NCBI GenBank assembly: GCA_020137815.1
Contig: CM035362.1
Coordinates: 5,828,001-5,892,000 of the forward strand
From: Hormiphora californensis
Lineage: Eukaryota; Animalia; Ctenophora
Reading direction: 5' to 3'
DNA length: 64,000 bases
Numbering within the stretch: the stretch's first letter is position 1; each line of letters starts with the position of its first letter. Under the pieces are notes generated by a model that saw only the letters and a program-made list of their open reading frames with translations, searched no databases and was not told the DNA's origin. The position numbers and the translations under genes were made by a program. Of the stretch, positions 2,036 through 59,113 are shown piece after piece.

Positions 2036-2234
2036 GTGAGTTTTAGGGGTGTCAATGATAAATGGGGCCATGGTAGACTAGAAGTACAGACGACAACGGA
2101 CGACAACAACATGTCAAATAAAAGTAGCTGGGAACTTTTATTTGGCAGCTTGACAGACGTTTGAAAAACTGACAGAAAAAACTTTTTCCGACTGAACCGT
2201 AGAAGTAAATTTTTGGAAGGTAAAATCTGTCAGT

Positions 2235-2866: not shown

Positions 2867-2955
<89 letters not shown>
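2235..2955. repeat. Compound (TGTC/TCTG/CT)n microsatellite
   Basis: Directly visible. Confidence 0.95.
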
Positions 2956-31019: not shown

Positions 31020-31072
<53 letters not shown>

Positions 31073-33162
31073 CCCTACCTCCGTTTCAGATCAAGAAAAT
31101 GGGAGATGAATACTTCACATTCCTGACAAAGTGCAAGGAACCCAAGGCCTGTACCATCCTACTGAGGGGAGCCAGCAAGGACGTTCTTATGGAGGTAAAC
31201 ACGTGGTTTTAATCAATATTATTATTAGGCTTACATTGTGCATTGGTAGCCCTTGCCAGTTGCCGGTGCGCTAAGAATTACTTGAAAATATTAGTTTCAG
31301 GTGTAATTTATAACCTGTTTGTAATTTTGTAATCAAGATCTGAATGGGGTCTCCAGTATAGTAATAGTAATCCAAAGTTATATCCCACACACTAGGTTGA
31401 GAGGAACCTTCAAGATGCCATGAATGTTGCTAGGAATGTCCTTCTCGATCCCTTCCTGGTTCCCGGGGGCGGTGCCGCTGAGGCTGCTCTCGCTTACAGG
31501 CTCATCGAGAAGAGCAAAACCATCCAGGTACATGTAGTTTGGGTTTTATTTATTTAGGGGTGGGAGCAAAACTAATTCCAAGTGGAAACTGGAAATTTGA
31601 TGGTTTAACAATGACCGGTTGCTGTCATGAATGCGTTACCTTTTTCAAATTTTGAGTCTTCAGGGTCTCTCGGTCACAGTTCCCACTTTATCTTGTTTTT
31701 CTAATTGTCCTTCCTCTTCCCAGGGTGTCGGACAGTGGCCTTACAGAGCTGTAGCTGAGGCCCTCAAGGTCATCCCAAAGACTCTGATGCAGAACTGCGG
31801 AGTGAACACAATCCGAACCATGACCACCCTGACGGCTAAACATGCCACCGGTGGAACCAGTTGGGGTGTTGATGGGGATACTGGAGATGTGGTGGATATG
31901 AAGACCTTCGGTATCTGGGATACACTTCAGGTATTGTTATCTCTCCTCTTATATGATCTTGGCCATGATATATACATGGGGATCAGAAATAGTCAAATCA
32001 GTGACAGCGCAGCAGATTTTATTATTTAATTAGGATTTAGGATCTAGGAAGTTATTGGCTTGGTAAATTTCCAAAGATCACAAATCACGGTGTGCGGACT
32101 CTAGTGCTACACTCTAAGTCTAAAGAGGACTCTATATCTAAATTTAGATTTAGATAAAGAGTCCAAATAATTCTAAACTCTAGGAGGACTCTTTATCTAA
32201 AAAGTCTACACAGGGCGGACTCTTTATCTAAAAAGTCTAAACAAAGTGGACTCTATATCTACATAAATCTAAATTAGATATAGAGTCCGCCTTTCGCCGC
32301 GAACTCGAGATTTCGGCCGTTAGGCCGGAAACGAGAGTTTGCTCTACCCCTATACTAATTTAGAAGTGTTAGGGCCGTTATTTGGGTTCGAGGTTAGGGT
32401 TAGGGTTAGTGTTAGGGTTAGGTTTTGGGTTGGGTTAGGATTTTAGACATAGAGTCCGGGTTGGAGGATTTGGCGCCAAAATGTACTAGAGGACTCTATA
32501 TCTAAAAATTCTACACAGGGCGGACTCTTTATCTAAAAAGTCTACACAGGGAGGACTCTTTATCTAAATTTTTTTCAAAATCTAACTCCCGGTGCCCGGA
32601 TTATAAAAATTTTCGATAAATACGGATTTCACGTATTAATCTTGCTGCCAAAATTTTTTCAATTTGCTGCCGATTTGCTGCCTCGTGAATCGAAATTTGT
32701 CCGATGGCAGTCCGCAATCGGTCCAATTGCTGCTGGCAGCATAATCTTATCAATTAGTTATCTAAAAAAAGGTCACCGGTTAGATCAATTTGCTGCCTCG
32801 CCCTTGATTTGCTGCCAAATTAAGGGCATTAATCTCTTGGGTATTTGCAATATCCGGGCACCGGGATCTAACTGTAGATAAAGAGTCCGTTTTTAGATAT
32901 AGAGTCCGCCTTGGATTTAGATAAAGAGTCCGTTAGCACTAGAGTCCGCCCACCACAAATCACAACCACACAAATACTAAACCCGGTGTTTCTACTACAG
33001 GTGAAATGCCAGGTAATGAAAACCGCTATTGAGACAGCCATCCTTCTTCTCCGAATCGATGACATTGTCTCCGGAGTCAAGAAAATGTCAGATATTGAGG
33101 CCGAGAAAATGGCGGGTAAATTCCAGCAACAGCAACCCCAGGAACCACCCGCAGAAGAATAG
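28318..33162 (+). CDS. CCT3: T-complex protein 1 subunit gamma (CCT/TRiC chaperonin)
   Basis: About 12 exons: MQAPMLVLNQNTKRESGRKVQLGNI, IRTCLGPRAMLKMLMDPMGGIVMTNDGNAILREI, EEVGDGTTSVIILAGE, LEYKKGESQT, KACTILLRGASKD, VPGGGA, KTAIETAILLLRIDDIVSG; stop at 33162. Confidence 0.97.
32089..32954. mobile_element. MULE/foldback-like element with 9-bp TSD, internal repeats and TTAGGG-like tract, in a CCT3 intron
   Basis: TSD acaaatcac (32080-32088, 32955-32963); TIR ggtg(t/g)gcggactctagtgcta. Confidence 0.85.
32588..32865. mobile_element. Nested MITE with 8-bp TSD
   Basis: TIR cccggtgcccggat; TSD atctaact on both sides. Confidence 0.85.
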
Positions 33163-38234: not shown

Positions 38235-39147
38235 ATGTGTGGAGAGAGTGGAAGTTGAGTGAGGACAGCGCCCAGAGGAAGGGAAATGTGAGGAATGTGG
38301 AAATGTGAGGAAAGTGGAAGGAGTGTGGAAATTGTTGAATGTGGACTTCAGATGTTGATTGTTACAGCTCTAGGCCAATATCAGACAATTTATGAGTGTA
38401 TAAATCTGTAATATAGTGTAATCTAGCCTGTAAATATATATTGAGTGTGTATCTAGATGTTTGATCGCTCCTTATCTGTATGTGGTAAATATCTTATTCA
38501 CATCGGTTTAGCAATGCAGTTGGACCCCGATTTACCGGGAGGATAAACTCCCGATAGAGGTATTTGGCCCCCATATAATATACCATGTTGTTTTGTTCAA
38601 ACTCTTTTTAGGAGGGTCGAACAAGGCAAATACCAGGCACCCCGATTTACTCTTTCCCCCGAGCATCCCGGTAAATCAGGGTCCGACTGTATTGGTTTGG
38701 TTGGACAATTCAAAGCATGTTAGTCATGTTAGTAGGAACCGGCGATTCTTTTCGATTTCTTCTCAATCTCGATCTTAAGTTATTCCCTAAAGATCGAACC
38801 TAAATCGAGAAGAATCACCGTTCCTACTAACATGACGAACATGCTTTGAATTAGCAATTCCTTTGTGGGATGATGTTTTGTGTGTTATGTTAGTTTAATT
38901 TAACGCCAATTGGCGAATTCTTTTACAATGAAACAAAGCGTTATTTACTTTTTTAAATGTTAGGAAACAAGTAGTAGGGTCGAGAACTAATACAATCATC
39001 AAACATCACAAAGCATTTCTGTAGGAGAGAGTTCTCTAGAGCAAGATGTAACCAGGTTGAGTTCTCCAAAGGTAACCACTGGTTACTCCAGAGGTAACCA
39101 TAGTAACTGCAGCTCTCCAGAGCTGTAACCATAGCAACAGAAGCTCT

Positions 39148-39882
39148 TTAGAGAATGCACAGGATAGTCTTGGCGATCTGGATGGCGATCTGGAACTCAA
39201 CAGGAATTGGAAGGGGGATGGGAAGGCCGGAACAAAGGATGGCTTTCTTCAGTGCAATACACTTGGCAATCTGTGAGGGGGGATTTGGTGTTTTATAGTG
39301 CACTACACTATAGTGGGTCTTGATTGCCTGGCTAGATTGTGTTTCAAATGTAATTGTAAAGGGAGGGTTAGAACATAACAATGTCTTGAGGGAGAAATTT
39401 ATGCCATTCCAAATAGAGAGTGAGTGAGTGAGTGAGTGGTTGTGAAAGAAAGAAGGAGAGAGTGAGCGAGATAGAGAGATTTCTATAGAGAGTGAGACAA
39501 AAAACAAAAATAGTGTGTACTTACCCATTCCTGGAGCTCAGCGGGATCAATAAATGCGACTCCTCCCTCCAGGTTGTCGTCAAGAACAGCCAGCTCCATA
39601 CTGCAGGAGAAAGTGGTTAAGATTCGGAGAGAGAAAGCTGAGAGAGAGGGAGAGAGCGGGGAGGAATTGGTGGTTGAGTTGGGGAGGAGATGGTTGTTGG
39701 TTATTGGTTATGGGTCAAGGTTAAATGGTAGAGAGTGCACTCTACTCGAGTTCTCTAACTAAACCGACAACTCGAGTCTCTCGGAGAACTCAGGCACAGC
39801 TCGGGATAATTATAGCCTATAGTTATTTTACTTACGCCATGGAGACTGCCACGAGAAGAAGAACACCAAACACAAACTTCAT
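39148..39882 (-). CDS. 81-aa secreted prepropeptide (signal peptide, acidic pro-region, hydrophobic Cys-containing peptide)
   Basis: Exons 39882-39836, 39600-39525, 39270-39148 with gtaagt donors and matching phases: MKFVFGVLLLVAVSMA MELAVLDDNLEGGVAFIDPAELQEW IAKCIALKKAILCSGLPIPLPIPVEFQIAIQIAKTILCIL*. Confidence 0.85.
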
Positions 39883-39924
39883 CTTGAGATAATTGTAGTC
39901 ATTTTCCCTCCCTCCCACTGCCCC

Positions 39925-39931
39925 TTTTATA
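39925..39931 (-). promoter_or_regulatory. TATA box of the secreted peptide gene
   Basis: TATAAAAGGGG about 45 nt upstream of the ATG at 39882. Confidence 0.7.
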
Positions 39932-41014
39932 CCACCATATCACGCAGCATGGATTAAACCCCATGGTCACCAGGTGTCGTGACATGGGAACGAGTTGATT
40001 TAGCACCTTCCTTCTATTAGAAGTTAAAATCCGATTTAGAACTTCTAAATTGAACTGATCTGCCTTAAAGGTGTTAAATTGAATGGATCACAATGGGGCC
40101 ATTCTGTGAATGCTAATGAATAGTTATATTTAATTGTCAGACGTCAGACGTCACACAGCACAGGTGTCCTATTTGCCGTGTGAATGCTATTGCTAGGTCG
40201 AGAAGTTTCAGCTAGACGTATTCAGCATTCTTTAACTGGAGACGATTTATTTTAATTTAATTAATCCTTAAGAAAGATAAAACACCGAGTTGGAATTTGA
40301 AAATCAACCGGAATAAGAACGAGATGAAACTAAAAATCGGAGACTCCAGAATTGTGTCATACAATTTGATGACATCATCTAGATGATGCATCTACTGTCT
40401 GGCGGTGCCAATCCGACCTGAGATTGTGAATCAAAAACCGTTTTGAAAACGTAGTTTGGCGACGCCAGACACTGACAGACAGTGACACTGACAGGTGTGT
40501 GAGGTGGGGATATTGAGTGACGCTCGTCAGCGCTGGTCATTTGTGCGCGCATGCCCGTGCAAAATGAGTGTACGGTGTGTGCGTGTGTGTGTGTGTGTCA
40601 CTTCTTTCAGTCGTTGTGTAGTTTCGTTTGTTGTTCATGTACCTCTGTTTGTTTCTTAAACTGTTCTCTCTAGTCTCTATCTAACCGGGGTCGCTCAGAT
40701 ATCTCTGACAATTTAACTCGTTGTACCCCCCATGTACTTTGTCGAATCGGTTTGTCTATTTTGTCTATTTTGTATCTTTAACGGTGCCAGTCACGTGTAC
40801 CGGTACAACACACAACAGGACCCAGCTCTGATATGACAGGTACGGTGTCACGGTGAGCCTCTCTCTCTTTGCTGAGTAGTGAGTAAGGGGTTGAAGTATT
40901 AAGTATTGCACCGAATATAGGTCAAAAATAAACACAAGAAATTTCTCGAACAGATAATACGGAATTGGAAAATATCCAACTCAAACCTCAAAAACACATT
41001 CACACACAAATCTC

Positions 41015-44000
41015 TCACGACCCTCCCTGCTCTCTCTTCCTTTTCTGTTCAGCTTTCCAGGCCAAGTATTCCTTCATATCATCATCTTCTTCTCCCTCTT
41101 TATTATCACTTGAATTGTCTTGTTTTTTGATCTCTGAACTCTCTTCTCCAAGCTCTTTCATTTCTGATTCTTCATTTTCAATGGGATCATCATTTTCTGG
41201 GTTGAGAGATTCGGCTGCTGGATCGATCACTTCTTTCTCGGGTGCGTCCTGATCATCTTTCTGGTCTTTCTGGTCCTGGTCTTCTTTCTGGTCCTCTTTG
41301 TCTGCCTCCTCATCTTCTTTCCTTTTTTCCTCATCTTCTTTATGTTTCTCTTCCTCAACCCTTTTCTTCTCGTCCTCAACCCTTTTCTTCTCTCCATCTT
41401 CGTTTCTCTTTTGTTCTTCTTCTTCTCTCATTTTCTCTTCTTCCCTTTCCCTTCTCATCTCTTCCAGTTCCCGTTCTCTCTCCTCTACCTCTTTCCTCTC
41501 CCTCTCCTTCCTCTCCTTTTCCTCCTTCTCCCCAGCCTTCTTCTTCTTCTCTTCTTCCTTCCTCTTCTTTTCCTCTTTCCATGCTCTCAGTTCCTCTTCT
41601 TCCCTCTCTCTCTTCTCTCTCTCATCCACTTCTCTCTTCTTCTTTTCCTCACTCTTCTCCTCTATCTCTCTCTTCATCTTGGCCTTCTCTGCTTCCTCTT
41701 GCTTAGCCCTCTCTTCTTTCTCCTTCTTCTCCTTCCTTTTCGCCTCCTTGCGCTCCTTATCCCGCTTCTCCCGCTCCCGTTCAGCATCCTCCCGTTCAGC
41801 TTTAGTCCGGTATCCGAATTGTTTGGAGTGCATGGCGTAGAACTTCTTGGCTACCTCAGGGTCACTACCTGTGGGAGAGGAGAGTGATTTGTATTTCGTA
41901 GTTCACAGCATGTCCAATGAAGCAGGGTAACCTGAATACTTATTCCTAATTCCTAATTCCTAATTCCTAATTCCTAATTCCTAATTCCTAATTCCTAATT
42001 CCTAATTCCTAATTCCTAATTCCTAGTTCCTAATTCCTAATTTTCCTTAATTCCTAATTCCTTACTCCTACCTGTAAAGTGCCAATAAAAGCGGTCATCA
42101 TTTTGATCACAGGGTAATAGAAGAAGGTGCCGTCCGTCGTGACTCAGGCATTTCCCGCTTCCCCCATGTCTCGTGAATCCTTCCTGTAAAATACATTAAA
42201 ATAATAATTAATTAAAATAATTACTTCTACAAGATCAGAGAGTGATGAAATTCGGTAATAATTCTTTTACCGAATACAGTAAATCAAATAGTAAATCAAA
42301 GCACAATCCCCATTCCCCAAATATATAAACTTAATTGATTAATCAATTAATTAATTAATTAAATTAATGAATTAATTAAATGATTAATAAATTACCTCAG
42401 TGATGAACCACTGTTGGTTCCCATTGAGCCCATGGCATTTGAATAGTTTCACATCCCTTGGGTTCTCTCCGTCCCCGTCCAGACATCTCCCGTCATTTTT
42501 TATCTCACCAGTTAGTAACAACTTCCAGAACTAAATAACAATTCGGAATGAGCAATTACCATTGATTACTAAATGTTACAAATTGCCTTAAACTCTCAAT
42601 CTAGGTTGCCATGGTAACCTACTGTCTGGCTCTGACAGGTTACCTGGGACCTGTTTGGGCTGGTTAATAGGGTGTGCCAGTTGCCCCGACCTCTTCTTGA
42701 AGCCAATCGGATGTAGTTAACCGGTGGCACCGTGGCTATAAAGGTTATAGCCACATGCGCGGGAAGTAGCACTTCCCAAACGGCTCCAAGATACTCGGAC
42801 TTTTTAACCACCTTAATCGAACCGCAATATAATGTTAATATACGATTTATGAAAAAATATATAGCCTAAAGTCAACCGTTTACAAGTTATTGGCCAAAAA
42901 CCACATTACAATATACAGTCGGACCCCGATTTAACGGCCCCCGATTTAGCGGCACCCCGATTTAACGGCAGGATAAATTTCCCCCAAAATTTTTTTTGAA
43001 ATTTTTTTGAAATTTTTTTTTTGAAATTTTTTTGAAAAACCACGTCCGAATCGTGTTTCGAATCGGTGCATCTTATTGCATGTCTTGCCGGTAATTAGAC
43101 GGTTCGAAACGAACAGATATGTGATCCCCATGAGGTCCATCGAATCGCAATTTTGACGCTTGTTAAACTAGCCTCATGGGGATCACGTATCGGTTCGTTT
43201 CGAACCGTCTAATTAGCGACAGGACGTGCGATAAGATGCACTGATTCGAAACACGATTCGGACGTGGTTGATATAACTTTGAAAAATTTTCATAATTTTT
43301 TTTGCAAAATTTTACAGAATGATTTTCAATGCTTTGATCGGTGCTCCCCATGCATTTTCAGAAAAAAATATATTTTGAAATTCAAATTCTTCCTCACCCC
43401 GCTTAAAGTGCCCCGATTCAGCATGGTATCACGTATCGGTTCGTCTAATTAGCAGCAAGACATGCGATAAGATGCACTTATTCGATAAACGATTCGGACG
43501 TGGTTGATATACATAGTACCTTAGAAAATTTTTATAACTTATTTTGAAATTATTTTGAAATTTCTTTCTTTTTCTAATCAGAAATGATCATGTAATCAAT
43601 ACATGGACATTGCATTTAACACTTAGAGGTGTTTTAGTATAGCATTTTGGACAAAAATAGGGTTTTATGGGCCAAATATGCTCTACCCCGATTTAACGGA
43701 CACCCCGATTTAACGGACAAAACCCTTTCCCCCGAGGGTGCCGTTAAATCGGGGTCCGACTGTATCAAAATAGTTGCGCATATGACCAGATATGCCCAGA
43801 TGTGCTAAACCGTTGAATATCTTGACTGGCAAATTGGGTTTTCGATATGAGCGTTTGTAGAGTTGCCTTAGACCCTCTCTGACTAGGTTAGGACCAAATG
43901 ACCATGATTCAGCCCGATCCACGCCCGTTTCCAACCATCTAATCGCTAGGGTAGTGAGCAAACCAGGATTTGGTCTATTTTATGAAGCTAAATATCAGAT

Positions 44001-47000
44001 TTCCGGCATGAAACCCATCAGACTTCAATTATTTGAGGTCCCTCATCCACCATGTAGCTTGGTAGATGGTATTGGCCCTCTAGGCGGTTGTATTAGTTCT
44101 TGTGGACAAACTAGACAGGAAGGCAAGTGCCAAAACTCCTATAATTAGCCGGCACCCAAAAGTTGACCACTTCCTGGCTATTCAAGTCAGCAAAAAGGAC
44201 TAATACTGCCGCCTAAAGGGCCAATACCATCTGCCAAGCTACAAGGTGAATGAGGGACCTCAAATAATTGAAGTCTGATGGGTTTCATGCCGGAAATCTG
44301 ATATTTAGCTCCATAAAATAGACCAAATCTTGGTTTGCTCACTACCCTAGCGATTAGATGGTTGGAAACGGGCGTGGATCGGGCTGAATCATGGTCATTT
44401 GGTCCTAACCTAGTCAGAGAGGGTCTAAGGCAACTCTACAAACGCTCATATCGAAAACCCAATTTGCCAGTCAAGATATTCAACGGTTTAGCACATCTGG
44501 GCATATCTGGTCATATGCGCAACTATTTTGATATATTGTAATGTGGTTTTTGGCCAATAACTTGTAAACGGATGACTTTAGGCTATATATTTCTTCATAA
44601 ATCGTATACTAACATTATATTGCGGTTCGATTAAGGTGGTTAAAAAGTCCGTAGGAGTATCTTGGAGCCGTTTGGGAAGTGCTACTTCCCGCGCATGTGG
44701 CTATAACCTTTATAGCCACGGTGCCACCGGTTAACTACATCCGATTGGCTTCAAACTTCACAATTGTGTTTATATTATCAAAAGCAACTCCCAAAAAAAC
44801 TTCTACAAAAATCGGATGAGTTTGAAAATTTCATGGGGCAACTGGCACACCCTACTGGTTAATACCCATGACAGCCTCTGACTCAGAGCATTGGCGGAGT
44901 GCACGAAAACCTTGGTTAGAGCATTGGCAACCTCGTTAGATTAATTACCTGATTAATTTAATTAATTAATAGTTAATTACCTGGTTGTATCCCTTTCCGT
45001 GGCAAGACCAAACCCCAACTTTGTTGCCCAGACCAGGTTGGAGGGCATCCATACAGATATCTCCCGGTCCTTTCAACTGAAACACATGGTGTCATTAATT
45101 AATTGATTAGTTTTAACTAACAGAGAAACTCAAGCATATAAAATGATTCGTTTTAAATCGGTCTAAGTCTAACGGTCGGCTCCCAAATTTCGGCCCTAAA
45201 ACTTCTAAATGAGTATAGAGGCACTGCGAATGATTTTAGACTTAGCGTCAGGGTCCCTTTTAAATCCAAAAGAATGATTATATGCGTTATTTAACAATAA
45301 AAACAATTTGATTGAAAGAAGTTTTTAGTAAAACATAAATAGTGAAATCAACGAAAAGTGCAAAAAATTAATCAAAGTGAAATCAGCGAAAAGTGCAGAA
45401 AATTAATCAAAATTGTATCGTTTAGTCTGATATGAAACAATAGTGAAAATTAATTAAAGTTGTATTGTTTAGTATCTGATATGAAACAATAGTGAAAATT
45501 AATCAAAGTTGTATTGTTTAGTCTGATATGCTGTCTGTGCTGGTATTCCGATAAGATGTGTTACATCAAACCGCTTCAATTGATCACCCTCTTCCACCGT
45601 CCCTGCAATATTGTGTGGTGATGGATGAGTTAATTAATTAATAATTAGTAATCCAGTCTGTCAAAGCATTGGCCTGACAGAATCCAGTAGTGTTTTAAAT
45701 GGACATAATAAACAAATCGGACTAAAATTTAGTAACAATATGGTGCTTGAAACTTCCTGTCAATAGACCATTTCAAGGTTTCCATTTTGTCCCCATCACA
45801 TTGTAGTAGTACCTGGCAGGAACCGACCGAACCAAGTAAACAACCAATCAGAACTCGTTATTTAGGTCACGTGACTGGTTTTCAGCCAATCAGGGACCAG
45901 TATTTCCTGATTCGGTCGGTTCATGGTACCTGGATTAACATGGTCAAAGTATCCCGTCTGTGCCTGGTTCATACACTCCCCTCCATACAACATCTGACAC
46001 AACTCAACTCCCCTGGCTGGTACCCTCACTGTAACAGGTCCCAACCTGCCCTCCACCACCGGATCCACCCACTTTCTTGGTGCCGTGTCAGTCTCACATG
46101 ACAGAGATCCCAGGACGGTGTAATCCGTGTCAGATGCAGTATAGAAGTTGATGTCAAGAAACACGTTCCTGTTTAGCTCTGGAACGTGTGTCCAGATTTT
46201 GAACATGGTGTCCGTTACCAGGGAAACGCCGTCTGAATCTTTGGCGTAGTCATAGTAACTGAGGCGGTATCCAAAACATGTTCGGAGGATGTCTTCCAGT
46301 GCTTCAATATCTTTCTTGTACTCGACAGGCACCTATTATAAAGTTTGTTTTGTTCAAAACTTTTTTATCTTATCTATTTGTTCGCGGGGAAGGAGGGTCG
46401 AACAAGGCAATATAAAGTGATACACTTTAGAGGCAAATAAAAAAACGGTTTTCCTCGGGAATATATCGCCAGTAAGATTATGGAGGAAAGGGGGACCCTA
46501 AGAGATTCAGGACTGTTTACCCCCAAATTATCACAATTCTCCCTCTCACCATTATATCGATATGTTTCCCCCCACTATACCACAATTCTCTCTCACCATT
46601 ATATCGATATCATCATCCCACGGTATTATTCCTCCATGTCGGGTGTATCCTAGCAACGTACCATAGTAACACCAATAAGGGATACCACGTGATACAAGTA
46701 GCTGGTGGGTCACATCCATCAGCTTGTAAAGGGTGTTGATGAGTGGTTCCGGTGTGTAGAGGGAGGAGATGGCAGATGTGGGAATATCCCTCACTCCCAG
46801 GGCCTTCTTTCGTTCTATTTCTTCATCCCACCTCTATATGATAAACAGTAGGTTTAAATCAGCAGCTCAACAACACTTTTGAGAGTTATTGAGAGAGCTG
46901 GATCCCTCAAACTCAAAACCTTTGTGGCAGCCATGTCTAGCGGTGAAGTGCTCTAAAATCTTATCCAGGGGACCCAGATCGGGCAGCAGACAGCAGCCCC

Positions 47001-50000
47001 TGGGTGGTGACATGTGATCGTTGCTCTCTCTCTTACCTTCCAAGCCTGCCGGACACCCTCATTATCCATCTTGTAGTCATTCCAATATTCCAAACTCCCG
47101 CCCTCCCTCATCAACTCCTTCTCCGATGTCTTGTTCTTCTTCTTTTGATGGTGGTCTCCTCCCTGATCCCCAACTTTGAGCACTTCCAGCTTACCAGACA
47201 TTATGTTGGTATATGTTTCGATATACTCAGAACAAATAAAACGAATGTTTCGATTACGTCTTACGATATACGCAGAACTTTGTCAACTAATCACAAAATG
47301 AATCAAAGAGCAGTAGCCGAAATATTGTGTGGGTTTGTCTAGTACATTGGTGTGATTTCAGCGGTGAATTTGTGGTAAATTTGATCATATCCTTTGAAAC
47401 TGCAGGGAACCTGTGTCGTGTTGACAGTGCCCTAGATGTGCAAGCTGATTAAGTAATGGGAGACATGAGTACGAAGAAAATAAAACAAGCCAAGCAAAGT
47501 CTACAAAAACAAATACCTAAAATTATGTATTGTCTTGTGTTTCAAAACACAATTTACTGAAGAAAGAAAAATCGGAAATGTGACTTGATGCCATAGTAAA
47601 AGGTGTGTTGTATGTGTTTCTTTGCCTAGCTATAGACTCTGTTTCGCGCGCCCCACCCGTGAAACATAGTACAAAATATGTAAAGGAGGGTTAGAAAATA
47701 ACAAGCGTTTCTTACCTCTTGTTGTCATGGTAACAAGTTTCTTACCTCTCGTTGTGATGGTAACAAGTATTTTCTTACCTCTCCATACCCAGCATAGTCT
47801 CGATCGGGTCGGGTCTGATCCGGATATACCTCTCTGAGGTACCAGGAGAAGGAGCGGCACTTTAGTCTCTGTCGGAGTAGCACCCGCGATACGAAATCAC
47901 CAGCTTCCACTTCTCTATGGGTGAGATGTGTGTTACACTTGGCTGGTGTGTTACACTTGGCTGGTGTGTTACACTTGGCTGGTGTGTTACACTTGGCTGG
48001 TGTGTTACACTTGGCTGGTGTGTTACACTTGGCTGGTGTGTTACACTTGGCTGGTGTGTTACACTTGGCTGGTGTGTTACACTTGGCTGGTGTGTTACAC
48101 TTGGCTGGTGTGTTACACTTGGCTGGTGTGTTACACTTGGCTGGTGTGTTACACTTGGCTGGTGTGTTACACTTGGCTGGTGTGTTACACTTGGCTGGTG
48201 TGTTACACTTGGCTGGTGTGTTACACTTGGCTGGTGTGTTACACTTGGCTGGTGTGTTACACTTGGCTGGTGTGTTACACTTGGGTGAGATGTGTGTTAC
48301 ACTTGGCTGGTGACATAGATAGACACATGTATGAGATCTAAGTCGCGTGAGAAAAACGGATTACTAAGTCATCCAGAAGCAATGCTAGGTGTAGTAGTAG
48401 AAGGGAATACTTTGACTATCCATCGACGTCTGTTCGGGTGAAATTGTGGGCCTGTCTCGATAAAAAACGGTATTCAGCAAACTGTTTCAATAACAACTGA
48501 GAACTCTCAGCATCAAAGATTGTTTACGGGAGTGCTCTCCCCCCAAAAAAACTGTTTCGATGAAATAAGAAGTTCCCTACACTATGCCTGATCACTATAA
48601 TAACAGGGATCATCCCCTCAACACTTGTTGAGTTCCCCCTTACTCAACAACTCAACACGTATTGGTTACGAAGTCACCCCTATTATTGCATCTGTGAGTT
48701 CCAGCTTACTTGTTTGATGGCACAGCGGTGTAATGGGCGTCTTTATAATCATCCAACCAGACCTCAACAAGTCGCTTAGTGTTTTGCTGTAAAGCTGTCT
48801 CTCCTGATACCGTCTAAATATTATATGGGATCGATTTAGCTGGTGATTGTATAATTGTGGTAACCTTGGTTACCATTTGGTCGTAGAATATCATATTTTG
48901 TTTGAAGCAATTAATCGTTAAATTATCATTGCATTATCATTCATTGATACAGTCGGACCCCGATTTACCGGGCAAGACCCTTTCCCCCGAGCATCCCGGT
49001 AAATCAGGGTCCAATCATGTACTATGAAACGAGTTTAAATATGGTTTGAAGCTGCTAGAAACAATTGCTGTTACCTTGGCAACGACGCTGCCTCTTCGGA
49101 AGATATGTGACACGTAACTGCATGTGTTTATCTCCAGTGCTCCCCCACACATCCAGATCTGTGGGAAGTGTCTCTGGGTTAGGATTGATTTGATCTGATA
49201 AGAGCAGTTGCCATGGGCGTGAACCCCTGTTGGGGACCCTTTCTGGGTAAGAAGTAAACGCTAGTACGAACTAGGCGTACTCAAACTACTAGTAGCACGG
49301 AAGGCCTTTGTATTGGCCTAGTTATTAAAAATTGAAAACATCATACTTTCCGCAGAGTTCACTTACTCTCAGGAACCGACCGACACAAGTAAACAACCAA
49401 TCAGAACTCGTTATTTAGGTCACGTGACTGGTTATCAGCCAACCAGGGACCAGTATAATTCCTGTCACTTACCCTAAAAGACATTTCGAGGTTCTCCGCT
49501 CCCCACACCTTCATCCCAGGGTCGTATGCCCCAATTTCAAAGAAGAAATCCTTGTCCATGGCAAACAGACCACCAGCCATTGCCGGACTCCTGTGGAATT
49601 ATAGCTGGTTACCATTGGTTACCATTGGTTACCATTGGTTACCATTGGTAATGAAATTCCCCCTCTGCGCTAGCTCACGGAGGGGTAATAATATCGCTTG
49701 TACGGCGGGAAAAAAATTCCTGTGTCCAAACTACAAAACAGAAAGTTCTAATTTTTTGAACATACCGAGGAAATTGTCTGAGCTACCATTACATACCGGA
49801 ATTTTTTGATATTTTTGCCATTAACACTGATTTTGTTTTTGGAAAACTATGAAGATGCTGGAATTTGGCTACAAAAACCTTCAGAAATGTGCAAAATGCC
49901 ATTCCAAAGGTATTAGAGGTGGATTCATTGATAACTAAGCTATAGTCGAGTCAGAAAAAATTCCACAAGATTGGAATTTTATGCCCATATAAGGAGTTAT

Positions 50001-53000
50001 GCGACACACCTCTGTTGTTAAACATGTGGTGTAATCGCTACCGGTCGTTACTTTCTGTAGAATTCAGGTCCTGGTTATTATACAAACTAGTACCATACGT
50101 TTTAGATAGGTTTTAGACAAGTTTTCGATAACTTTTTATGAGAAGGTCCCGTAAATTTTCATTTTTAGGTAGGCGGTATTGTCACCCCTATATGCAATAA
50201 TAGGGGTGACTTCGTAACCAATGGTTACCATTGGTTACCAATGGTTACCATCAGTTACATGCAAACGACCACCAGCCATTGCCGGATCTATAATGTGGAT
50301 TTAGGGGTACCATTAGTTACCATTGGTTACCAATGGTTACCATGCAACAGACCACTGCCATTGCGGGACTCCTATAATGTGGAATTATATAGTGTGTCAC
50401 AAACTGTAATCATGTATATGTGTTGTATCATGGTAACCTTGGATACCATTAGTTACCATTAGTTACCATTGGTTACCATTGGTTACCATTAGTTACCATG
50501 GCAAACAGACCACCTGCCATCGCCGGAGTCCTATAATAATGTGGAATTATATAGCTGGTTACCATTAGTTACCATTGGTTACCATTAGTTACATTGGTTA
50601 CCATGGCAAACCGACCACCTGCCATCGCCGGACTTCTATAATGTGGAATTATATAGCTGGTTACCATTAGTTACCATTGGTTACCATCAGTTACCATGGC
50701 AAACAGACCACCAGCCATTGCCGGACTCCTATAATGTGGAATTATAGGTGGTTACCATTAGTTACCATTGGTTACCAATGGTTACCATGGCAAACAGACC
50801 ACCTGCCATTGCCGGACTCCTATAATGTGGAATTATATAGCTGGTGTCACAAACTGTAATCAATGATATAGCTGTGTTGTATCATGGTAACCTTGGATAC
50901 CATTAGTTACCATTAGTTACCATTGGTTACCATTGGTTACCATTGGTTACCATTAATGTTACCATTAGTTACCATCGGTTACCATTAGTTACCAATGGTA
51001 ACCATTAGTTACCATTGGTTACCATTAGTTACCACTGGTTACCATCGGTTACCATTAGTTACCAATGGTAACCATTAGTTACCATTGGTTACCATTAAGG
51101 TTACCATTAGTTACCATTAGTTACCATTGGTTACCAATTTATACCGACCTAATGGGCTGGCTATCATCAAAGTCTCTCCTCTGCATTTCCCGGGGTGGAA
51201 TGGGCCTCCATTTGAACACCATGTCCCAATCCCAGGCACCCCACTGTGTGTTGTATTTGTCAATAACCAGGTCCAATGAGGTGTGGTCTATTGCTGATAT
51301 AATTGGGCATACCACCTGCGTGGAGTTTAATAGTTAAAACAGGAACCGACCGAACCAAGTAAACAACCAATCAGAACTCGTTAGTTAGGTCACGTGACTG
51401 GTTATCAGCCAATCAGGGACCAGTATTTCCTGATTCGGTCGGTTCATGAGTTAAAATCTCATTCGTAGTTCAGAAATGTGATTAGATTATCCTTGGTGTA
51501 CTGCTTGGGGTAATATCTAGTTGGTGGTAGGGTCTCCCATGATTTTATGAAGATGGTGATTCGAGTATAGTAGAGATTCCTAAACATTAAATGCATTTAA
51601 ATTTGACGAAAGTTATGGGATTTCGCATACCGTTTTGGGGTCTCCCATGACTCTATCAACCAGTGGGGCGTACCATCCAGGAAGAGGTTCCACGTGACTA
51701 TCCAGGAATATCAGAACTTTTCCAGTCGCCTCCTTTGCACCGATAATCCTACTCCTGATCAGACCCTCCCTGATAACGAAACCGCTGTTTTAATGATGTC
51801 ATTAGTGATGTCATTAGTGATGTCATTAGTGATGTAATTGCATTGGTGATGTTATTAGTCATGTCATATTGTCAATGACAATATGACATGACAATTTGTC
51901 ATTCGGATGGCTCACTAAAATTTAATAATGATTTCTTTTAATATATATTAAGTTTACCTTTTGGTGTTCCGTAAAAGTCGTACAAAGGGAAATTGAGCGA
52001 GTTCCTGGTCCAATCGTGGTCCTAATTCATCTACAAATTAGATGACGTGTTAGTTTTTATATGTCATTAATTGCCGTCAAAGGAGCAAAAGAGAGGTTAC
52101 TAAGATAGCTGAAGTGATGTCGTTACAGTGAGATTGTTACAGTAACTAAAGTGAGATTGTTACAGTTACTAAAGTGAGATTGTTACAATAACTAAAGTGA
52201 GATTGTTACAATAACTAAAGTGAAATTGTTACAGTTACTAAAGTGAGATTGTTACAGTTACTAAAGTGAGATTGTTACAATAACTAAAGTGAGATTGTTA
52301 CAATAACTAAAGTGAGATTGTTACAATAACTAAAGTGAGATTGTTACAATAACTAAAGTGTGATTGTTACAATAACTAAAATGAGATTGTTACAGTTACT
52401 AAAGTGAGATTGTTACAATAACTAAAGTGAGATTGTTACAATAACTAAAGTGAGATTGTTACAATAACTAAAGTGAGATTGTTACAATAACTAAAGTGAG
52501 ATTGTTACAGTTACTAAAGTGAGATTGTTACAATAACTAAAGTGAGATTGTTACAGTTACTAAAGTGAGATTGTTACAATAACTAAAGTGAGATAATATA
52601 CCTCTAGAACTCTTGTCGTCCACAATTATAATCTCCTTCAGGCTCTCCATCGGTGTATTAAGCATTATACTGAAAGGGTTAACATAATCAGTTGTTAGGA
52701 TTCTAGTTGTTAGGATGGTAACCATATTGCCATGATGCAGTTGCCATGGTTGCCATGATGCAGTTACCATGGTTACCATGATACGGTTGCCATGGTGATG
52801 GATTGGTACCTGATTATCGTCCGAAGAAGAACGGCCAGCTCTTCATTGTACATGACTATTACCACGCTACTTGTAGTCAGTTCTCCATCTGGTCGGAGTT
52901 TCCTCGCTACCACTCGGCACCTGTGTAGTAGAGACATGTGTTCAGTTATAGGGAACAACCTGGAGACATGTGTGGATCAGAGTCGGTTTGCGACTAGCCC

Positions 53001-54531
53001 TTGAGGCCTTGACCCCTCGTCACTAAAGGCGAGGTAGCTCAATATAATAGGTTAGAGAAATGTACATGTAAAGCAGAGGTTGTCGGTTCGAGCCCGGCCC
53101 TCGCCAGATATTTTTCTGGTTTCCTCCCTATATTAGATCCAGGAACCGACCGAACCAAGAAATACTGGTCCCTGATTGGCTGATAACCAGTCACATGACC
53201 TAAATAAAGAGTTCTGATTGGTTGTTTACTTGTTTCGGTCGGTTCCTGATCAGATCTCGAATTCATTACAATCTTACCCTTCTGTTCGCGGGTCTTTGTG
53301 GCGTCTGTTCAGCGGTAATTTATCACTTAGATAAGTGTTAAACTCATTAAGTTTGAACAGTTCCTCCTTGTAGGATTCTAAATCTAATATCTAAAGGAGA
53401 GATGAGTTTGTAAAAGAACTGATCAACTGCTGTAGTAGGCAAACAACAAACAATAACCTTTTGAAAATATGGGTGTAAATGAATATAATCCTGCAAAGTA
53501 CAAATTGGAAATATATACAGAATTCTGAAAGGGGTAGGTTACCTAGCCTCTGACTAGCATTTTCATGGTCCGGAAACATGGTTTGTACACAAAGAGTGAC
53601 AAATGTTAGGAAACACAAAAAAGAAAGTATACCTCTGACTCTGCTGTTCTGAAGGCTGATGTGTCTAGGTAACGCGGTGTTGATGGATCATAAAACTCCA
53701 ATAAATACGATACGGGATTTCTGGGAGAAGGGATATAATGGGTTTAAAACATAAAACAGTCGGATTTCGGTAAATTATAATAGGGGTCCCCTCAGACGGA
53801 AGGTACATTGACTTATACTAGATACTTGACCCCGATTCTGAAGGCCACTAGGCCAACTGAAGGCGCCTGGTTCAAGTGGTACTGCAGACTGCACTGTATG
53901 GCGTCGCCATACCCCATTTGATTCTCAGTGCGCTCAGATGGGTCGCGGCGCCAGACAGAGACTGCAGCAGCAGTACCTGTAATAATATACGGTGCTCCAA
54001 ATTGCAGCAGCAGTACCTGTAATAATATACGGTGCTCCAAATTGCGGCCACAATGGTCCACAGGAGAAGTAAACCAAGAATTCCGGCAACAATTCCCACT
54101 CCCTTTAGTATAACGGGGGCGTCAGATCGTTCAGAGAACTCCAAAAACTGAGAAGTGAGATTGTTACATTAACTAAGGGAGAGAAGTGAGATTGTTACTT
54201 TAACTAAGGGAGAGAATTCCCACTCCCTTTAGTATAACCGGGGCATCAGATCGCTCAGAGAACTCCAAAAACTGATGAAATAGAGTTCTTTTAGACTCTT
54301 TTAGAACTTTCTTTTCAAATCAGAGAATGCACGGGAACACACTAGATAAACGCAATGGTACTGCTGCATTGCCACCTATAATTCACTTCTTGTATGTGTG
54401 AGATCTTGCACATAACAGGTGTCTATGTCACCAAACACATGCAGGAGCACAATGAAAGCCTAATCTCCAACCTTTTTCTGAGCATGGTGTCTGAAAGTGA
54501 GGACTTTTAACCGGATTTCCGCAGCCCGCAT
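41015..54531 (-). CDS. GALNT: Polypeptide N-acetylgalactosaminyltransferase (GT27) with ricin-B lectin domain and long charged tail
   Basis: ATG at 54531 ([10 protein letters not shown]...), TM segment [59 protein letters not shown] (DxH), [37 protein letters not shown]. Ricin exons are ~45076-44981, 42530-42396 and 42183-42072; last exon 41868-41015. Confidence 0.92.
41942..42070. repeat. (AATTCCT)n heptamer repeat
   Basis: Directly visible. Confidence 0.95.
42668..44854. mobile_element. hAT-type foldback element with ~600-bp inverted arms
   Basis: 8-bp TSD ctggttaa; termini tagggtgtgccagttgcccc; mirror-image ORFs 43710-43961(-) and 44335-44541(+). Confidence 0.92.
42916..43762. mobile_element. 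Long pogo-like MITE nested in the left arm of the foldback element
   Basis: ta|cagtcggacccc...ggggtccgactg|ta; absent from the right arm. Confidence 0.9.
45796..47201 (-). CDS. LicD/fukutin-family nucleotidyltransferase nested in a GALNT intron
   Basis: Exons 47201-47036, ~46833-46597, 46332-~45800; motif [26 protein letters not shown]. Confidence 0.85.
45817..45925. mobile_element. ~107-bp hAT-type MITE (TIR CAGGAACCGACCGAA, 8-bp TSD); about 20 full or partial copies in the window
   Basis: TSD gtacctgg here, agttaaaa at 51340 and atagtttg at 57982. Other copies at ~3258, 8269, 10146, 20972, 21404, 21913, 22423, 25750, 30022, 49370, 53140, 55300, 56190, 57050-57920. Confidence 0.92.
47925..48312. 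repeat. 18-bp perfect tandem repeat (~21 copies) next to a GALNT acceptor
   Basis: Unit tgtgttacacttggctgg. Confidence 0.95.
50215..51137. repeat. (GTTACCATTG/A)n satellite interleaved with partial GALNT exon copies
   Basis: 10-bp periodicity plus six copies of catggcaaacagaccacc(a/t)gccattgccggactcctataatgtgg. Confidence 0.9.
52126..52593. repeat. 23-bp tandem repeat (~20 copies) next to a GALNT donor
   Basis: Unit aaagtgagattgttacaataact. Confidence 0.95.
53028..53106 (+). pseudogene. tRNA-like pseudogene or tRNA-derived SINE head
   Basis: Perfect acceptor stem GGCGAGG/CCTCGCC+A, box A TAGCTCAA..GG and box B GGTTCGAGCCC. The D-loop is expanded and the anticodon stem is broken. Confidence 0.65.
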
Positions 54532-54928
54532 TCTCGGTGTCACTGGCAGAATTCCAAGATTCCGCGGGTAGAGCCCCTGATCCACACTGCAGTAGTAGTG
54601 CTATAAATAGTGTGATCACGTGTTAACGATATTACTGGCAGAATTCCAAGATTCCGCGGGTAGAGCCCCCGATCCACACTGTTGTAGTGCTATAAATTTT
54701 AGTAATCAAATGAGTAATCAAATGAGTAATCAATTGAGTAATCAAATGAGTAATCAAATGAGTAATCAAATGAGGTAAACATTTAAACAGATCACGCGTT
54801 ACTTATATGTATGATATATCATGTGCATACGATGGAAACTTAGATAAAATCAAAATATCAAAATAACGACAAACTAGGGCATATAATCTACGTAACCAAA
54901 TGTACTAAATCACACAGAAGTAACCGAA

Positions 54929-54999
<71 letters not shown>

Positions 55000-55750
55000 T
55001 TGTAAGATGGCAATGCGTGTACCTCACTACCTCATGGAATGCTGGGGCCTTACAACACACACACACTCATATGGTGGCTGTGGGGGAAAACCGCGCTACA
55101 ATTGACCTTATTTGGTCATGTCCTTTTATGGATCGATTTTTTATAGTCTATAGTTCCCAGTTATTTGGAGTTGTATCATATGGATCAGAGTTTCTGTATA
55201 CCGCATTCAAGTGTGTGTACGGCAGAAGAACAGTGCTACATGACTCTGCTGCATGTCGGCATCATGCCACCTAGCACTTAGCAGCCCCATCTTGATACTC
55301 GTCCCTGATTGGCTGATAACCAGTCACGTGACCTAAATATCGAGTTCTGATTGGTTGTTTACTTGTTTCGGTCGGTTCCTGCCCCATCTTGATATGTGTG
55401 GCACAGTCCAATTCCTTTCTTTCCTCTGTCAGTGCGATACCTGCAACCAATCTCGCACAAGAAAGGGTCAGCGTGATACCTAACCACTCTCCTCGCTCCG
55501 CTCGCACGAGAAAGGGTTAAGAGAAAGGATCATTGCGATACTTGATAGTTCTCCCTCAATTCTTGTACAATCATAGTTTTTTTCCGCTTCTTGACTCAGT
55601 CATTACTGCATGGCGGAACACACTGATTTATCCAATCGCTACAATTTAGTACATGTGCTTTATCACTGCATGGCTCTTTGTTCTATCAAGTTTTTAATCC
55701 ACTTGAATCAATCAAGGTCGGAAGGGTATTTGATCATTCACATCTCTCTC

Positions 55751-55781
<31 letters not shown>

Positions 55782-55808
55782 CTCTCTTTCTCTCTCTTTC
55801 TCTCTCTT

Positions 55809-55895
<87 letters not shown>

Positions 55896-56018
55896 GAGGT
55901 ACCTGTTCATTTCGTTCAATACGCGTTAAACATTGCTCTCAATTATGCTTGCTACTCTGATCTTGCACTCATATTAGGGTCCACACAGAGAAAAAAAAAG
56001 AGAGAGAGAGAGAGAGAG

Positions 56019-56066
<48 letters not shown>

Positions 56067-56885
56067 AGAGACTTTGTGCATGCAGTGTGTAGATTCTGTT
56101 TGTAGCGACGAGACACTTTATTTTCTCTGTGACTCCTCAACCGGCTAAATAACGGAATGTCTTTTCCAACCACGTAAGTTCAAACACAAGTAAACAACCA
56201 ATCAGAACTCGTTATTTAGGTCACGTGACTGGTTATCAGCCAATCACGGACCAGTATTTCCTGATTTGGTCGGTTCCTGTTCTAACACCAACCAATAATT
56301 TCTAACTGCATCCACCCGTCTGATACCCTGCATCCATAATTTGTCCATCTATTTATCTGTTTGTTGTGTGACGTCACCTATAATAATACACGTGTTACAA
56401 ATGGTGATAGAATTGAGAAGCACATGTTTCGTCCTGATGTTAGCTCTGCGGTGAAAACATAAAAAACTGATGCGATGAACTCCCTCTCTCCATGAGAGAG
56501 AGCTTGTTCAAATTAAGCAATTGCGTTGCTTGATAAACAAATGGTGGTATATCAATATCAAGCTATAGATCTAAAGAGACCCGTTCACACAGAACTTTCC
56601 AGTTTCCACTTGCAGTTCTATACTGTTTCTTGTTGTTTTTTTGTGTGTGTGAACGCAGTAAGTCTTGTCTTTTTTGAATAGATTCTGAAATCTGAATCCA
56701 ATAATTTATCACCACCTGACAAACCCCTGTCACCATGATAACTCCCATCACCCCCTGTAACCATGACAACCCGGCCTGACACCATGACAACACGGCCTGA
56801 CACCATGACAACACGGCCTGACACCATGACAACACGGCCTGACACCATGACAACACGGCCTGACACCATGACTCCCCCGCCTCAG

Positions 56886-59113
56886 GAACGAGGGGCACGG
56901 AGAACACCTCCGGCAAGCATACGGATTCCAGGCAACAGATAACCCCTTTGCGAACCGGAACATAGTTTATCCAGTTGGTGTTGGGGATATTGATATGGAG
57001 GGTTGGAGTACCTTCCATCATACCGCCGCTTCTAATGACACTGCCGTGAGTAAACAACCAATCAGAACTCGTTATTTAGGTCACGAGACTGGTTATCAGC
57101 CAATCAGGGACCAGGGTTGGGTGGGAACTGGGGGGGGGGTTGGTGTTGGGGATATTGATATGGAGGGTTGGAGTACCTTCCATCATACCGCCGCTTCTAA
57201 TGACACTGCCGTGAGTAAACAACCAATCAGAACTCGTTATTTAGGTCACGAGACTGGTTATCAGCCAATCAGGGACCAGGGTTGGGGGGAACTGGGGGGT
57301 TGGTGTTGGGGATATTGATATGGAGGGATGGAGTACCTTCCATCATACCGCCGCTTCTAATGACACTGCCGTGAGTTAACAACCAATCAGAACTCGTTAT
57401 TTAGGTCACGTGACTGGTTATCAGCCAATCAGGGACCAGGGTTGGGTGGGAACTGGGGGGTTGGTGTTGGGGATATTGATATGGAGGGATGGAGTACCTT
57501 CCATCATACCGCCGCTTCTAATGACACTGCCGTGAGTAAACAACCAATCAGAACTCGTTATTTAGGTCACGTGACTGGTTATCAGCCAATCAGGAACCAG
57601 GGTTGGGGGAACTGGGGGGTTGGTGTTGGGGATATTGATATGGAGGGTTGGAGTACCTTCCATCATACCGCCGCTTCTAATGACACTGCCGTGAGTAAAC
57701 AACCAATCAGAACTCGTTATTTAGGTCACGTGACTGGTTATCAGCCAATCAGGGACCAGGGTTGGGTGGGAACTGGGGGGTTGGTGTTGGGGATATTGAT
57801 ATGGAGGGTTGGAGTACCTTCCATCATACCGCCGCTTCTAATGACACTGCCGTGAGTAAACAACCAATCAGAACTCGTTATTTAGGTCACGAGACTGGTT
57901 ATCAGCCAATCAGGGACCAGGGTTGGGTGGGAACTGGGGGGTTGGTGTTGGGGATATTGACACTGCCGTGAGTATAGTTTGCAGGAACCGACTGTAAACA
58001 AGTAAACAACCAATCAGAACTCGTTATTTATCAGCCAATCAGGGACCAGTATTTCCTGATTCGGTCAGTTCCTGATAGTTTGTCTGTGAATTATTTTTTG
58101 TCTGTTATAACAGACCACTGCGCTGGCAAAATTGACCACCCTTCCTCCACAGCTGCAAATTAAAACACTGATCCTAACCTGCCACAGGTGCTCAGTGACA
58201 TTATAAGCCAAGACGGATTCGAGCATTTGGAATCCCGGACCGAGATACTAGATGGACACCAGTTCACCCCTCTCCTCTGTGCGGTAAAGGGTGATGCCAC
58301 TGACACTTTTCACCTCTTAGTTAGTAGTGGAGCAGATATTGAGGCAAGGGATTGTAATGGTCTCGGTCTTGTCGAGGTATAGTGATCAGATGTTTTAATT
58401 GACCATGAATATGGGGTGATAATACATGTGACCAAAATCCAATATAATATGGCTTAAACTTAACTAAGGGATATTACTTTTTTACACATGGAATATTATG
58501 GTGATGATACATTTTACTAAATATGGCTAAGAGATATGCATTTTTGCCCATATATGGTCATTTTTTCAGATTGCTGTCAAGTTCAACTCGACTGAGGTGT
58601 TCAGCCACTTACTGGATCAGGGTTACGAGCACAAGGGTATCGATATTTGGGCAACTGTGCTCTCTCTGCTCTGTCAACGGGATCACCCTGACATGAGAGC
58701 TGCTGCCATGGAGGTAATATTATATGACCTTATTTGGTCGGATAATTATATGACCTTATTTGGTAATATTATAAACTAAATATGGTCACACCCCGATTAC
58801 CGGGATGCTCGGGGGTTTTTCCCGGTAAATTTAATCGGGGTGCCTGGGTCAAATACCGTTAATTTCCTATTTATCGGGGGAAGTTTATCCTCCCGGTAAA
58901 TTGGGATTCGGGTAAATCGGGGTTCCGGTAAATCGGGGTCCGACTTGTACATGTATGGTGCTGTAACTCTATGCCCATATATGGTATCTTTTTAGATGGT
59001 GGGTGAGATATTGTCACGGGATACGGATCACGTGACTGCATTTGTTACCCGTGGAGGACTCATTGCAGTGAAAGACATCCTGACTGACCTGGTGAATAGC
59101 TCCCGTAACAAAG
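56886..59113 (+). CDS. Ankyrin-repeat protein with following ARM-like helices (partial)
   Basis: Exons 56886-57045, 58188-58376, 58570-58713, 58996-59113: DMEGWSTFHHTAASND, FTPLLCAVKGD...GADIEARDCNG, FVTRGGLIAVKDIL. Start and 3' exons not found. Confidence 0.75.
56973..57972 (+). repeat. ~160-bp tandem array (6 units) of exon 3' end, donor site and MITE core
   Basis: Repeated ...aatgacactgcc|gtgagt aaacaaccaatcagaactcg...gggaccag ggttggg. Confidence 0.93.

What the first reader, a model, noticed from the sequence alone, without database searches (positions are those of the whole stretch)
45796..47780. LicD/fukutin-family gene nested on the same strand between the GALNT catalytic and lectin exons; in-frame fusion possible
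Seen in sequence: the LicD gene lies wholly inside the GALNT intron between ...YAGYGE (donor ~47777, phase 0) and the first ricin exon (LKGPGDIC, ~45076). Its second exon ([10 protein letters not shown], acceptor ~46833) is also phase 0, and its own N-terminus has no signal peptide or TM anchor. Established knowledge: LicD/FKTN/FKRP enzymes transfer phosphocholine or ribitol-phosphate from CDP donors to glycans, and same-strand nesting is less common than opposite-strand nesting. Inference: alternative splicing could swap the lectin domain for LicD, giving a Golgi-anchored bifunctional GalNAc-transferase/phosphotransferase and hence a new O-glycan modification route. Otherwise this is an unusual cytosolic LicD.
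Basis: partly seen in the sequence, partly recalled or inferred. Interest (0 to 1): 0.75.

Follow-up and report, generated by a model that had tools for sequence, protein, structure and literature searches.

The report
Stand-alone LicD gene inside GALNT intron
A four-exon gene for a LicD/fukutin-family phosphotransferase sits on the same strand inside an intron of a sugar-transferase (GALNT) gene in what is likely a comb jelly, and it most likely works as its own soluble enzyme, not as a spliced fusion, because an unanchored stand-alone relative exists and a related GALNT gene appears to have the same intron empty.

Summary
The nesting is real, but the gene's end was misplaced: the last exon is 45602-45499, giving an intact 302-aa LicD with all catalytic aspartates. 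The fusion is possible on paper and weakly supported. The phase match is cheap: 8 of 16 modelled introns are phase 0. The end of exon 1, which the 47778->46833 splice would skip, is conserved in a stand-alone, anchorless 272-aa relative (34% identical). The only in-frame acceptor before exon 1 is a GAG, whereas 16 of 16 modelled acceptors are YAG. A close GALNT relative appears to have a 141-nt, LicD-free intron here. Parallel nested genes are reported as common in a ctenophore (PMC8527503). No RNA could test the junctions. In favour of the fusion: it would copy FKRP's layout (GALNT-like fold plus LicD), hard-wired glycosyltransferase-LicD fusions exist in viral contigs and a Chlamydiae genome, and the ricin acceptor is weak. 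Verdict: likely an independent nested gene for a soluble LicD; functional fusion about 12%.

The parts
47037..47201 (-). LicD exon 1, coding part (ATG at 47201, 55 codons, donor phase 0)
   Evidence: last 14 codons continue the ungapped alignment with P0013
46597..46833 (-). LicD exon 2 (79 codons, phase 0-0): YGT motif and D128, D130, D132
   Evidence: (PF04991 E 9.6e-15)
45930..46332 (-). LicD exon 3 (phase 0-1): third catalytic aspartate D194
45499..45602 (-).
45817..45925 (.). MITE with terminal inverted repeats and 8-bp target duplication across the exon 3 donor; source of the false 45812-45796 ending
47779..47914 (-). GALNT last catalytic-domain exon; donor GT at 47778, phase 0, echoed twice by a 30-nt tandem repeat
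44981..45076 (-). GALNT first ricin-lectin exon, phase 0; weakest of 16 modelled acceptors (1.4 bits)
45077..47778 (-). host intron, 2702 nt; about 141 nt and without LicD in the relative P0009-P0011 (inferred from read-through translation)
47202..47700 (-). likely LicD 5' region (own promoter and/or outron); YAG acceptors without a later upstream ATG at 47338 and 47286; GAG acceptor at 47225; E2F-like motif 47642-47650
   Evidence: function inferred, motif name recalled
41015..54147 (-). host GALNT gene (membrane anchor, GT-A catalytic domain with DxH, ricin domain, long charged tail)
   Evidence: start codon and stem exons not resolved

Best explanation
An intact four-exon LicD gene lies on the same strand inside the GALNT intron and is likely an independent nested gene, made as its own mRNA and likely encoding a soluble, cytosolic phosphotransferase. 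Shown: gene anatomy, open frame, catalytic residues, lack of an anchor, a stand-alone anchorless relative. Inferred: the gene entered this intron after the split from the lineage that gave P0009 (direction not proven); its 5' end comes from a promoter in 47700-47250 and/or from spliced-leader trans-splicing at a YAG acceptor such as 47338 or 47286; GALNT mRNA is spliced 47778->45077 across it and keeps its lectin. Inferred chemistry, by analogy with LicD, FKRP and Mycoplasma mf1: with divalent metal bound by D128/D130/D132/D194 it would split a CDP-alcohol (CDP-choline or CDP-ethanolamine most likely, both made on the cytosolic side by the Kennedy pathway, recalled) and put the phospho-alcohol on a sugar hydroxyl of a cytosol-facing glycolipid or small glycan, releasing CMP. 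Donor and acceptor are untested guesses.
For: P0013 (272 aa, single open frame, own Met, LicD the only Pfam hit, no anchor) aligns with window residues 42-294 at 34%, E 2e-44, next best 2e-17; window LicD, P0013 and P0012 form one branch, SH-aLRT 99. The last 14 residues of exon 1 score 27 in the register fixed by exon 2; 1 of 20000 shuffles and 2 of 61894 stop-free 14-mers of the window reach it, the GALNT exon end scores -13 there; that stretch begins predicted helix 18-37 of the P0013 model. P0009-P0011 match both flanking GALNT exons (32 of 38 and 22 of 32 residues) and hold only 47 intervening codons starting V-S and ending Q, as a GT..AG intron of 141 nt read through would. 16 of 16 modelled acceptors are YAG; of 26 AGs upstream of the LicD ATG only 47225 is in frame and stop-free, and it is GAG, -0.9 bits against 1.4-10.2. 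2357 nested genes, many parallel, and a leader on 56% of Iso-Seq reads in Hormiphora (PMC8527503). P0013 model matches FKRP best (Foldseek E 1.5e-10); aspartates essential in FKRP (PMC6965139) are kept.
Against: No transcript of either gene from this organism was available, so an own start site, a leader and even expression are unshown. The ricin acceptor is the weakest modelled (1.4 bits) and LicD exon 2's is average (5.5), so a read-through host transcript could use 46833. No AATAAA-type signal was found after the LicD stop beyond one AATACA. No sequence pairing that would loop LicD out of the host transcript was found. The source organisms of P0009 and P0013 are unknown, their DNA was not seen, and P0008-P0011 probably represent one species. 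The comb-jelly identity rests on earlier AI notes and recall.
Confidence: 0.74

Rival explanations
1. Regulated alternative splicing joins the GALNT donor 47778 to LicD exon 2, giving a Golgi type II protein (anchor, active GalNAc-transferase, LicD) laid out like FKRP, which would add GalNAc to Ser/Thr and cap it or an extension with a phospho-alcohol; the soluble form may exist beside it.
For: The join stays in frame to the LicD stop. FKRP's stem is structurally like the ppGalNAcT-10 catalytic domain and precedes its LicD domain (PMC6965139, passages). Hard-wired fusions occur among relatives: LicD+GT25 in 4 viral loci and GT10+LicD in a Chlamydiae genome, of 6 long loci picked for length; similar names in BFVD. 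Ricin acceptor weak. All catalytic residues lie in exons 2-3.
Against: Phase match expected about half the time; the join removes conserved exon-1 residues and part of a predicted helix; nesting appears absent in the close relative; the nearest LicD relative is unfused and unanchored; no fused GALNT-LicD protein among the longer-protein searches (3 hits of 41 candidates; 2 of 7; weak negatives).
Confidence: 0.12
2. LicD has no promoter of its own: it is cut from GALNT read-through pre-mRNA by spliced-leader trans-splicing inside the intron, so the two genes form an operon-like unit and each transcript yields either GALNT or LicD.
For: Leaders are widespread in ctenophore mRNA (PMC8527503); several YAG acceptors lie 85-355 nt upstream of the ATG; Schultz et al. 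note that parallel nested genes need special processing.
Against: Operons have not been reported in ctenophores (PMC7986045, passages); about 500 nt of upstream room with an E2F-like motif (2 in the window, 0.19 expected, 3 of 100 shuffles, a post-hoc weak lead); nothing here separates this from trans-splicing after an own promoter.
Confidence: 0.09
3. LicD is a silent or decaying recent insertion, or the arrangement is an assembly error.
For: No RNA support obtainable; MITE insertion at a donor and tandem repeats at exon edges; no close ortholog found for a selection test.
Against: 302 open codons over four exons, canonical splice sites, all catalytic residues kept, no N in the window, host frame intact on both sides.
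Confidence: 0.05

Closest known systems
Nested intronic genes of the ctenophore Hormiphora californensis (PMC8527503; abstract, outline and passages read, supplements not available)
   Same: Protein gene within one intron of a host, parallel orientation reported as common, transposons nearby, leader trans-splicing in the background.
   Different: This pair is not mentioned in the passages seen; no transcript evidence here; no LicD-ctenophore or LicD-GALNT paper found (0 papers each).
LicD / Fukutin / FKRP nucleotidyltransferase family (PF04991; group XXIII in PMC2794190, passages)
   Same: Pfam match above cut-off, hG[GS]-type motif (YGT), DxD plus distal D, NTase fold nearest to FKRP.
   Different: No anchor, no stem domain, no zinc-finger test made; donor and acceptor unknown; not shown to be an FKTN or FKRP ortholog.
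Human FKRP (PMC6965139, passages; PDB 6KAJ series)
   Same: Catalytic fold and aspartates; the hypothetical fusion would share its order anchor - GALNT-like fold - LicD.
   Different: FKRP is one gene with an inactive stem; here two genes, the GALNT keeps its DxH, and the join is unshown.
Single-domain and GT-fused LicD proteins of giant viruses, Chlamydiae and Dependentiae; Mycoplasma mf1 (PMC11982090, passages)
   Same: Short single-domain form of 220-300 aa; nearest named neighbours in the tree and in BFVD.
   Different: At most about 30% identical over long alignments; the joining branches are unstarred (81-87), so transfer from these groups is a lead only; the window gene has three spliceosomal introns.
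Same-strand host/nested pairs in mammals (PMC11694760, PMC3192792, passages)
   Same: Orientation near even, pairs mostly species-specific, host transcripts sometimes splice aberrantly near the nested gene.
   Different: Those chimeras are described as interference products, not as designed domain swaps.

Membership tests
LicD/FKTN/FKRP family | PF04991 match above gathering score | tested here: met
   55.7 bits vs 22.6 for exon 2; exon 3 alone has no Pfam hit but Atlas neighbours are LicD clusters, 0.95
LicD/FKTN/FKRP family | hG[GS] motif, [DE]h[DE]h and distal h[DE]h acidic residues | tested here: met
   YGT 112-114 (Thr for Ser, as in many relatives fetched), D128/D130/D132, D194 (motifs from PMC2794190, PMC6965139)
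LicD/FKTN/FKRP family | NTase fold | tested here: met
   on the relative P0013, not the window protein: pLDDT 77.7, best PDB match FKRP E 1.5e-10
LicD/FKTN/FKRP family | transfer of phospho-alcohol from an NDP donor | not testable with these tools
   needs enzyme assay
Golgi FKTN/FKRP orthologs | N-terminal membrane anchor and stem domain | tested here: not met
   no hydrophobic segment, 302 aa
Nested intronic gene | all exons inside one intron of an intact host gene | tested here: met
   (gene models from sequence and homology)
Nested intronic gene | own transcript, separate from the host mRNA | not testable with these tools
   no RNA holder listed
Alternative 3' domain-swap isoform (GALNT-LicD) | in-frame splice route | tested here: met
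   47778->46833 open to the stop
Alternative 3' domain-swap isoform (GALNT-LicD) | junction reads | not testable with these tools
Alternative 3' domain-swap isoform (GALNT-LicD) | arrangement conserved in relatives | tested here: not met
   one relative of unknown species, inferred 141-nt intron
Horizontally acquired gene | supported nesting inside a bacterial or viral clade with eukaryote outgroups | tested here: inconclusive
   quick tree, 51 rows, one named animal sequence, deep branches 81-87
ppGalNAc-transferase (host) | anchor, GT-A domain with DxH, Gal/GalNAc-T motif, ricin domain | tested here: met

The most novel reading that the evidence does not exclude
A young nested insertion has rebuilt the FKRP architecture by splicing: the GALNT donor at 47778 joins LicD exon 2, swapping the lectin for a phosphotransferase and giving a Golgi enzyme that both starts and phospho-caps O-GalNAc glycans, caught while the soluble ancestral form still exists.
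Probability: 0.12. Interest if true: 0.72.

Novelty: new member of a known kind. Interest (0 to 1): 0.3.

Why it matters
As read here it is an ordinary nested gene, with two modest points of interest: an uncharacterised anchorless LicD branch (window gene, P0013, P0006/P0012) whose nearest named neighbours are giant-virus and intracellular-bacterial proteins, and a clean test case for how comb jellies splice a host gene across a same-strand multi-exon guest. If the fusion were real it would show a new O-glycan modification route and a living intermediate for how FKRP-like two-domain enzymes arise.

Tried and rejected
RNA: no RNA holder listed; one run (X1, same species label, 0.00 of the words) was laid twice, at 85% on 40900-47920 and 80% on 44960-47920; it covered only the MITE, a repeat near 42900 and short pieces of the GALNT last exon, with no joints. 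One 151-nt X1 contig matches 41805-41851 with 4 differences and its 25 loose letters read by eye in register with the previous exon's end, a hint of a diverged spliced GALNT, too short to count. No evidence either way on expression. No whole genome held. JGI metagenome scan with exon 3 gave 1 locus from 599 stretches, a chance match in a GC-rich frame. Profile-free search of 1.84 billion representatives with exon 3: 2 hits, one real (P0006), one unrelated (P0007). Viral scan with P0006: none of 4. Acceptor 47225: disfavoured. Loop-out of LicD by pairing of the intron ends: best duplex -26.8 kcal/mol beat 30 of 30 shuffles (best -26.5) but 8 of 19 composition-matched real window pairs did as well or better, and no strong inverted repeat joins the ends; rejected. 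Spliced-leader copy in the window: 0 matches with up to 3 mismatches to part of the Hormiphora leader. CpG island upstream of LicD: not distinct. Second LicD copy in the window: none. Second nested protein gene: none recognised in 150 of 203 filtered ORFs scanned. Careful tree on 71 rows did not finish; the quick tree used 51 rows from 225 de-duplicated of 262 hits, P0006 dropped as a near copy of P0012. LicD is not named in the main text of the Mnemiopsis HGT paper (PMC6005172, passages). Supplements of PMC8527503 (nested-gene list, could give orientation counts or this pair) and PMC13342648 (HGT list) could not be seen; PMC2844618 not held. Literature searches with no paper: ctenophore+LicD (12), LicD+giant virus+glycosyltransferase (92), LicD+GALNT (93). 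PMC8478517 passages do not cover ctenophores; PMC10282587 passages call about 10% nested exonic bases normal. No complex was predicted.
Full report
Observation. Reading 39000-58000 and modelling exons gave an open 14-exon GALNT frame on the minus strand from 53363 to 41015, with a membrane-anchor exon near 54147-54017 whose link to the rest I did not resolve. GT2, GT7C and ricin matches support the name. The intron between the last catalytic exon (donor 47778, phase 0) and the first ricin exon (45076, phase 0) is 2702 nt and holds a same-strand LicD gene (PF04991, E 9.6e-15). The protein is 302 aa, without a hydrophobic segment, and keeps the YGT motif, D128, D130, D132 and D194, the positions shown essential in FKRP (PMC6965139, passages).

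Organism. Not tested here. Earlier notes on this genome call it a comb jelly with spliced leaders; no leader copy lies in this window.

Relatives of LicD. The best relative by far is P0013, 272 aa in one open frame, 34% identical over window residues 42-294. It starts at its own Met, has no anchor and no second Pfam domain. With P0012 it forms a branch with the window protein (SH-aLRT 99; quick tree of 51 rows). Deeper branches toward Chlamydiae, Dependentiae and giant-virus proteins are unstarred and only one named animal protein was in the set, so horizontal origin is open. A model of P0013 (pLDDT 77.7) matches FKRP best in the PDB and giant-virus LicD proteins in BFVD. The source organism of P0013 is unknown; it lacks the window's three introns or is a transcript.

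Tests of the fusion. (a) Frame: 47778->46833 is open to the LicD stop, but 8 of 16 modelled introns are phase 0, so the match is unsurprising. (b) What is skipped: the last 14 residues of exon 1 continue the P0013 alignment without a gap (score 27; 1 of 20000 shuffles; 2 of 61894 window 14-mers; the GALNT exon end scores -13) and begin a predicted helix, so exon 1 is a true, constrained part of the enzyme. (c) The route that keeps exon 1, 47225, is the only in-frame stop-free AG of 26 and is a GAG; 16 of 16 modelled acceptors are YAG (two upstream GALNT acceptors left out as unresolved). (d) Conservation: a search with the GALNT exon found P0008 and P0009 (84% identical); P0009-P0011 run from that exon through 47 codons into the ricin exon, as a 141-nt intron read through would, leaving no room for LicD. 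This is one lineage of unknown name, inferred from protein only. (e) RNA could not be tested (see Tried and rejected). Against my reading: the ricin acceptor is the weakest modelled (1.4 bits against 5.5 for LicD exon 2); no pairing that hides LicD from the host spliceosome was found; FKRP itself is a GALNT-like fold followed by LicD; and glycosyltransferase-LicD fusions exist in 5 of 6 long loci chosen for length. Human work shows host transcripts do splice aberrantly near same-strand nested genes (PMC3192792, passages), so low-level chimeras would not by themselves prove function.

Mechanism. Most likely (0.74) an independent nested gene. Hormiphora has 2357 nested genes, many parallel to the host, and a leader on 56% of long reads (PMC8527503); mammalian pairs are near even in orientation and mostly species-specific (PMC11694760). 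LicD mRNA would start from a promoter in the 500 nt upstream or receive a leader at a YAG such as 47338 or 47286 (no ATG between these and 47201), while GALNT splices across. The product would be a soluble metal-dependent transferase of phosphocholine, phosphoethanolamine or a polyol phosphate from a CDP donor to a sugar hydroxyl, as shown for Mycoplasma mf1 with a glucosyl-lipid (PMC11982090, passages); cytosolic location fits where CDP-choline is made (recalled). Donor, acceptor and location are inferred. Rivals: functional fusion 0.12, promoterless release from host transcripts by trans-splicing 0.09, silent copy or artefact 0.05.

Novelty. New member of known kinds (nested intronic gene; LicD family). 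Searches for ctenophore+LicD, LicD+GALNT and LicD+giant virus+glycosyltransferase found no paper; look-ups of earlier scan notes by place, words and sequence found none on this arrangement. Interest 0.3; 0.72 if junction reads show a regulated fusion.

Noticed in passing
window 45817-45925 (also 8272-8357, 30023-30116, 51343-51436, 53143-53236): Palindromic-ended MITE family; the copy at the LicD exon 3 donor has an 8-bp target duplication that contains AG|GT and so offers a clean new intron, an introner-like property (term recalled).
   Followed up: partly
window 42667-44862: About 2.2-kb element with terminal inverted repeats and an 8-bp target duplication fills the next GALNT intron (hAT-like by duplication length, recalled); no Pfam scan of its ORFs was run.
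   Followed up: partly
window 41015-41868 (-): The GALNT last exon adds about 280 highly charged (E/K/R/D) residues after the ricin domain, no Pfam match; unusual for ppGalNAc-transferases (from recall).
   Followed up: no
window 47707-47783, 46514-46610, 45398-45530, 50260-50860: Exon edges with their splice sites are echoed as tandem copies in neighbouring introns of both GALNT and LicD; the LicD stop lies inside a 49-nt repeat.
   Followed up: partly
P0013, P0006, P0012 (ENA contigs of about 1 kb): An anchorless LicD branch without the window's introns; organism unknown; possible transfer from intracellular bacteria or giant viruses is unresolved.
   Followed up: partly
L019, L003, L018, L067, L082, L006: Hard-wired fusions: LicD+GT25 in viral contigs, GT10+LicD in a Chlamydiae genome, aminotransferase+LicD in a viral contig.
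   Followed up: partly
window 53028-53106 (+): tRNA-like match (Rfam RF00005, 33.1 bits) inside a GALNT intron, opposite strand, next to a MITE; may be a SINE head.
   Followed up: no
window 794-5174 (+), 8957-9948 (-), 28479-33159 (+), 58164-58379 (+): Other genes: duplicated sushi-repeat units, a protein kinase, a CCT chaperonin subunit, an ankyrin-repeat gene.
   Followed up: no
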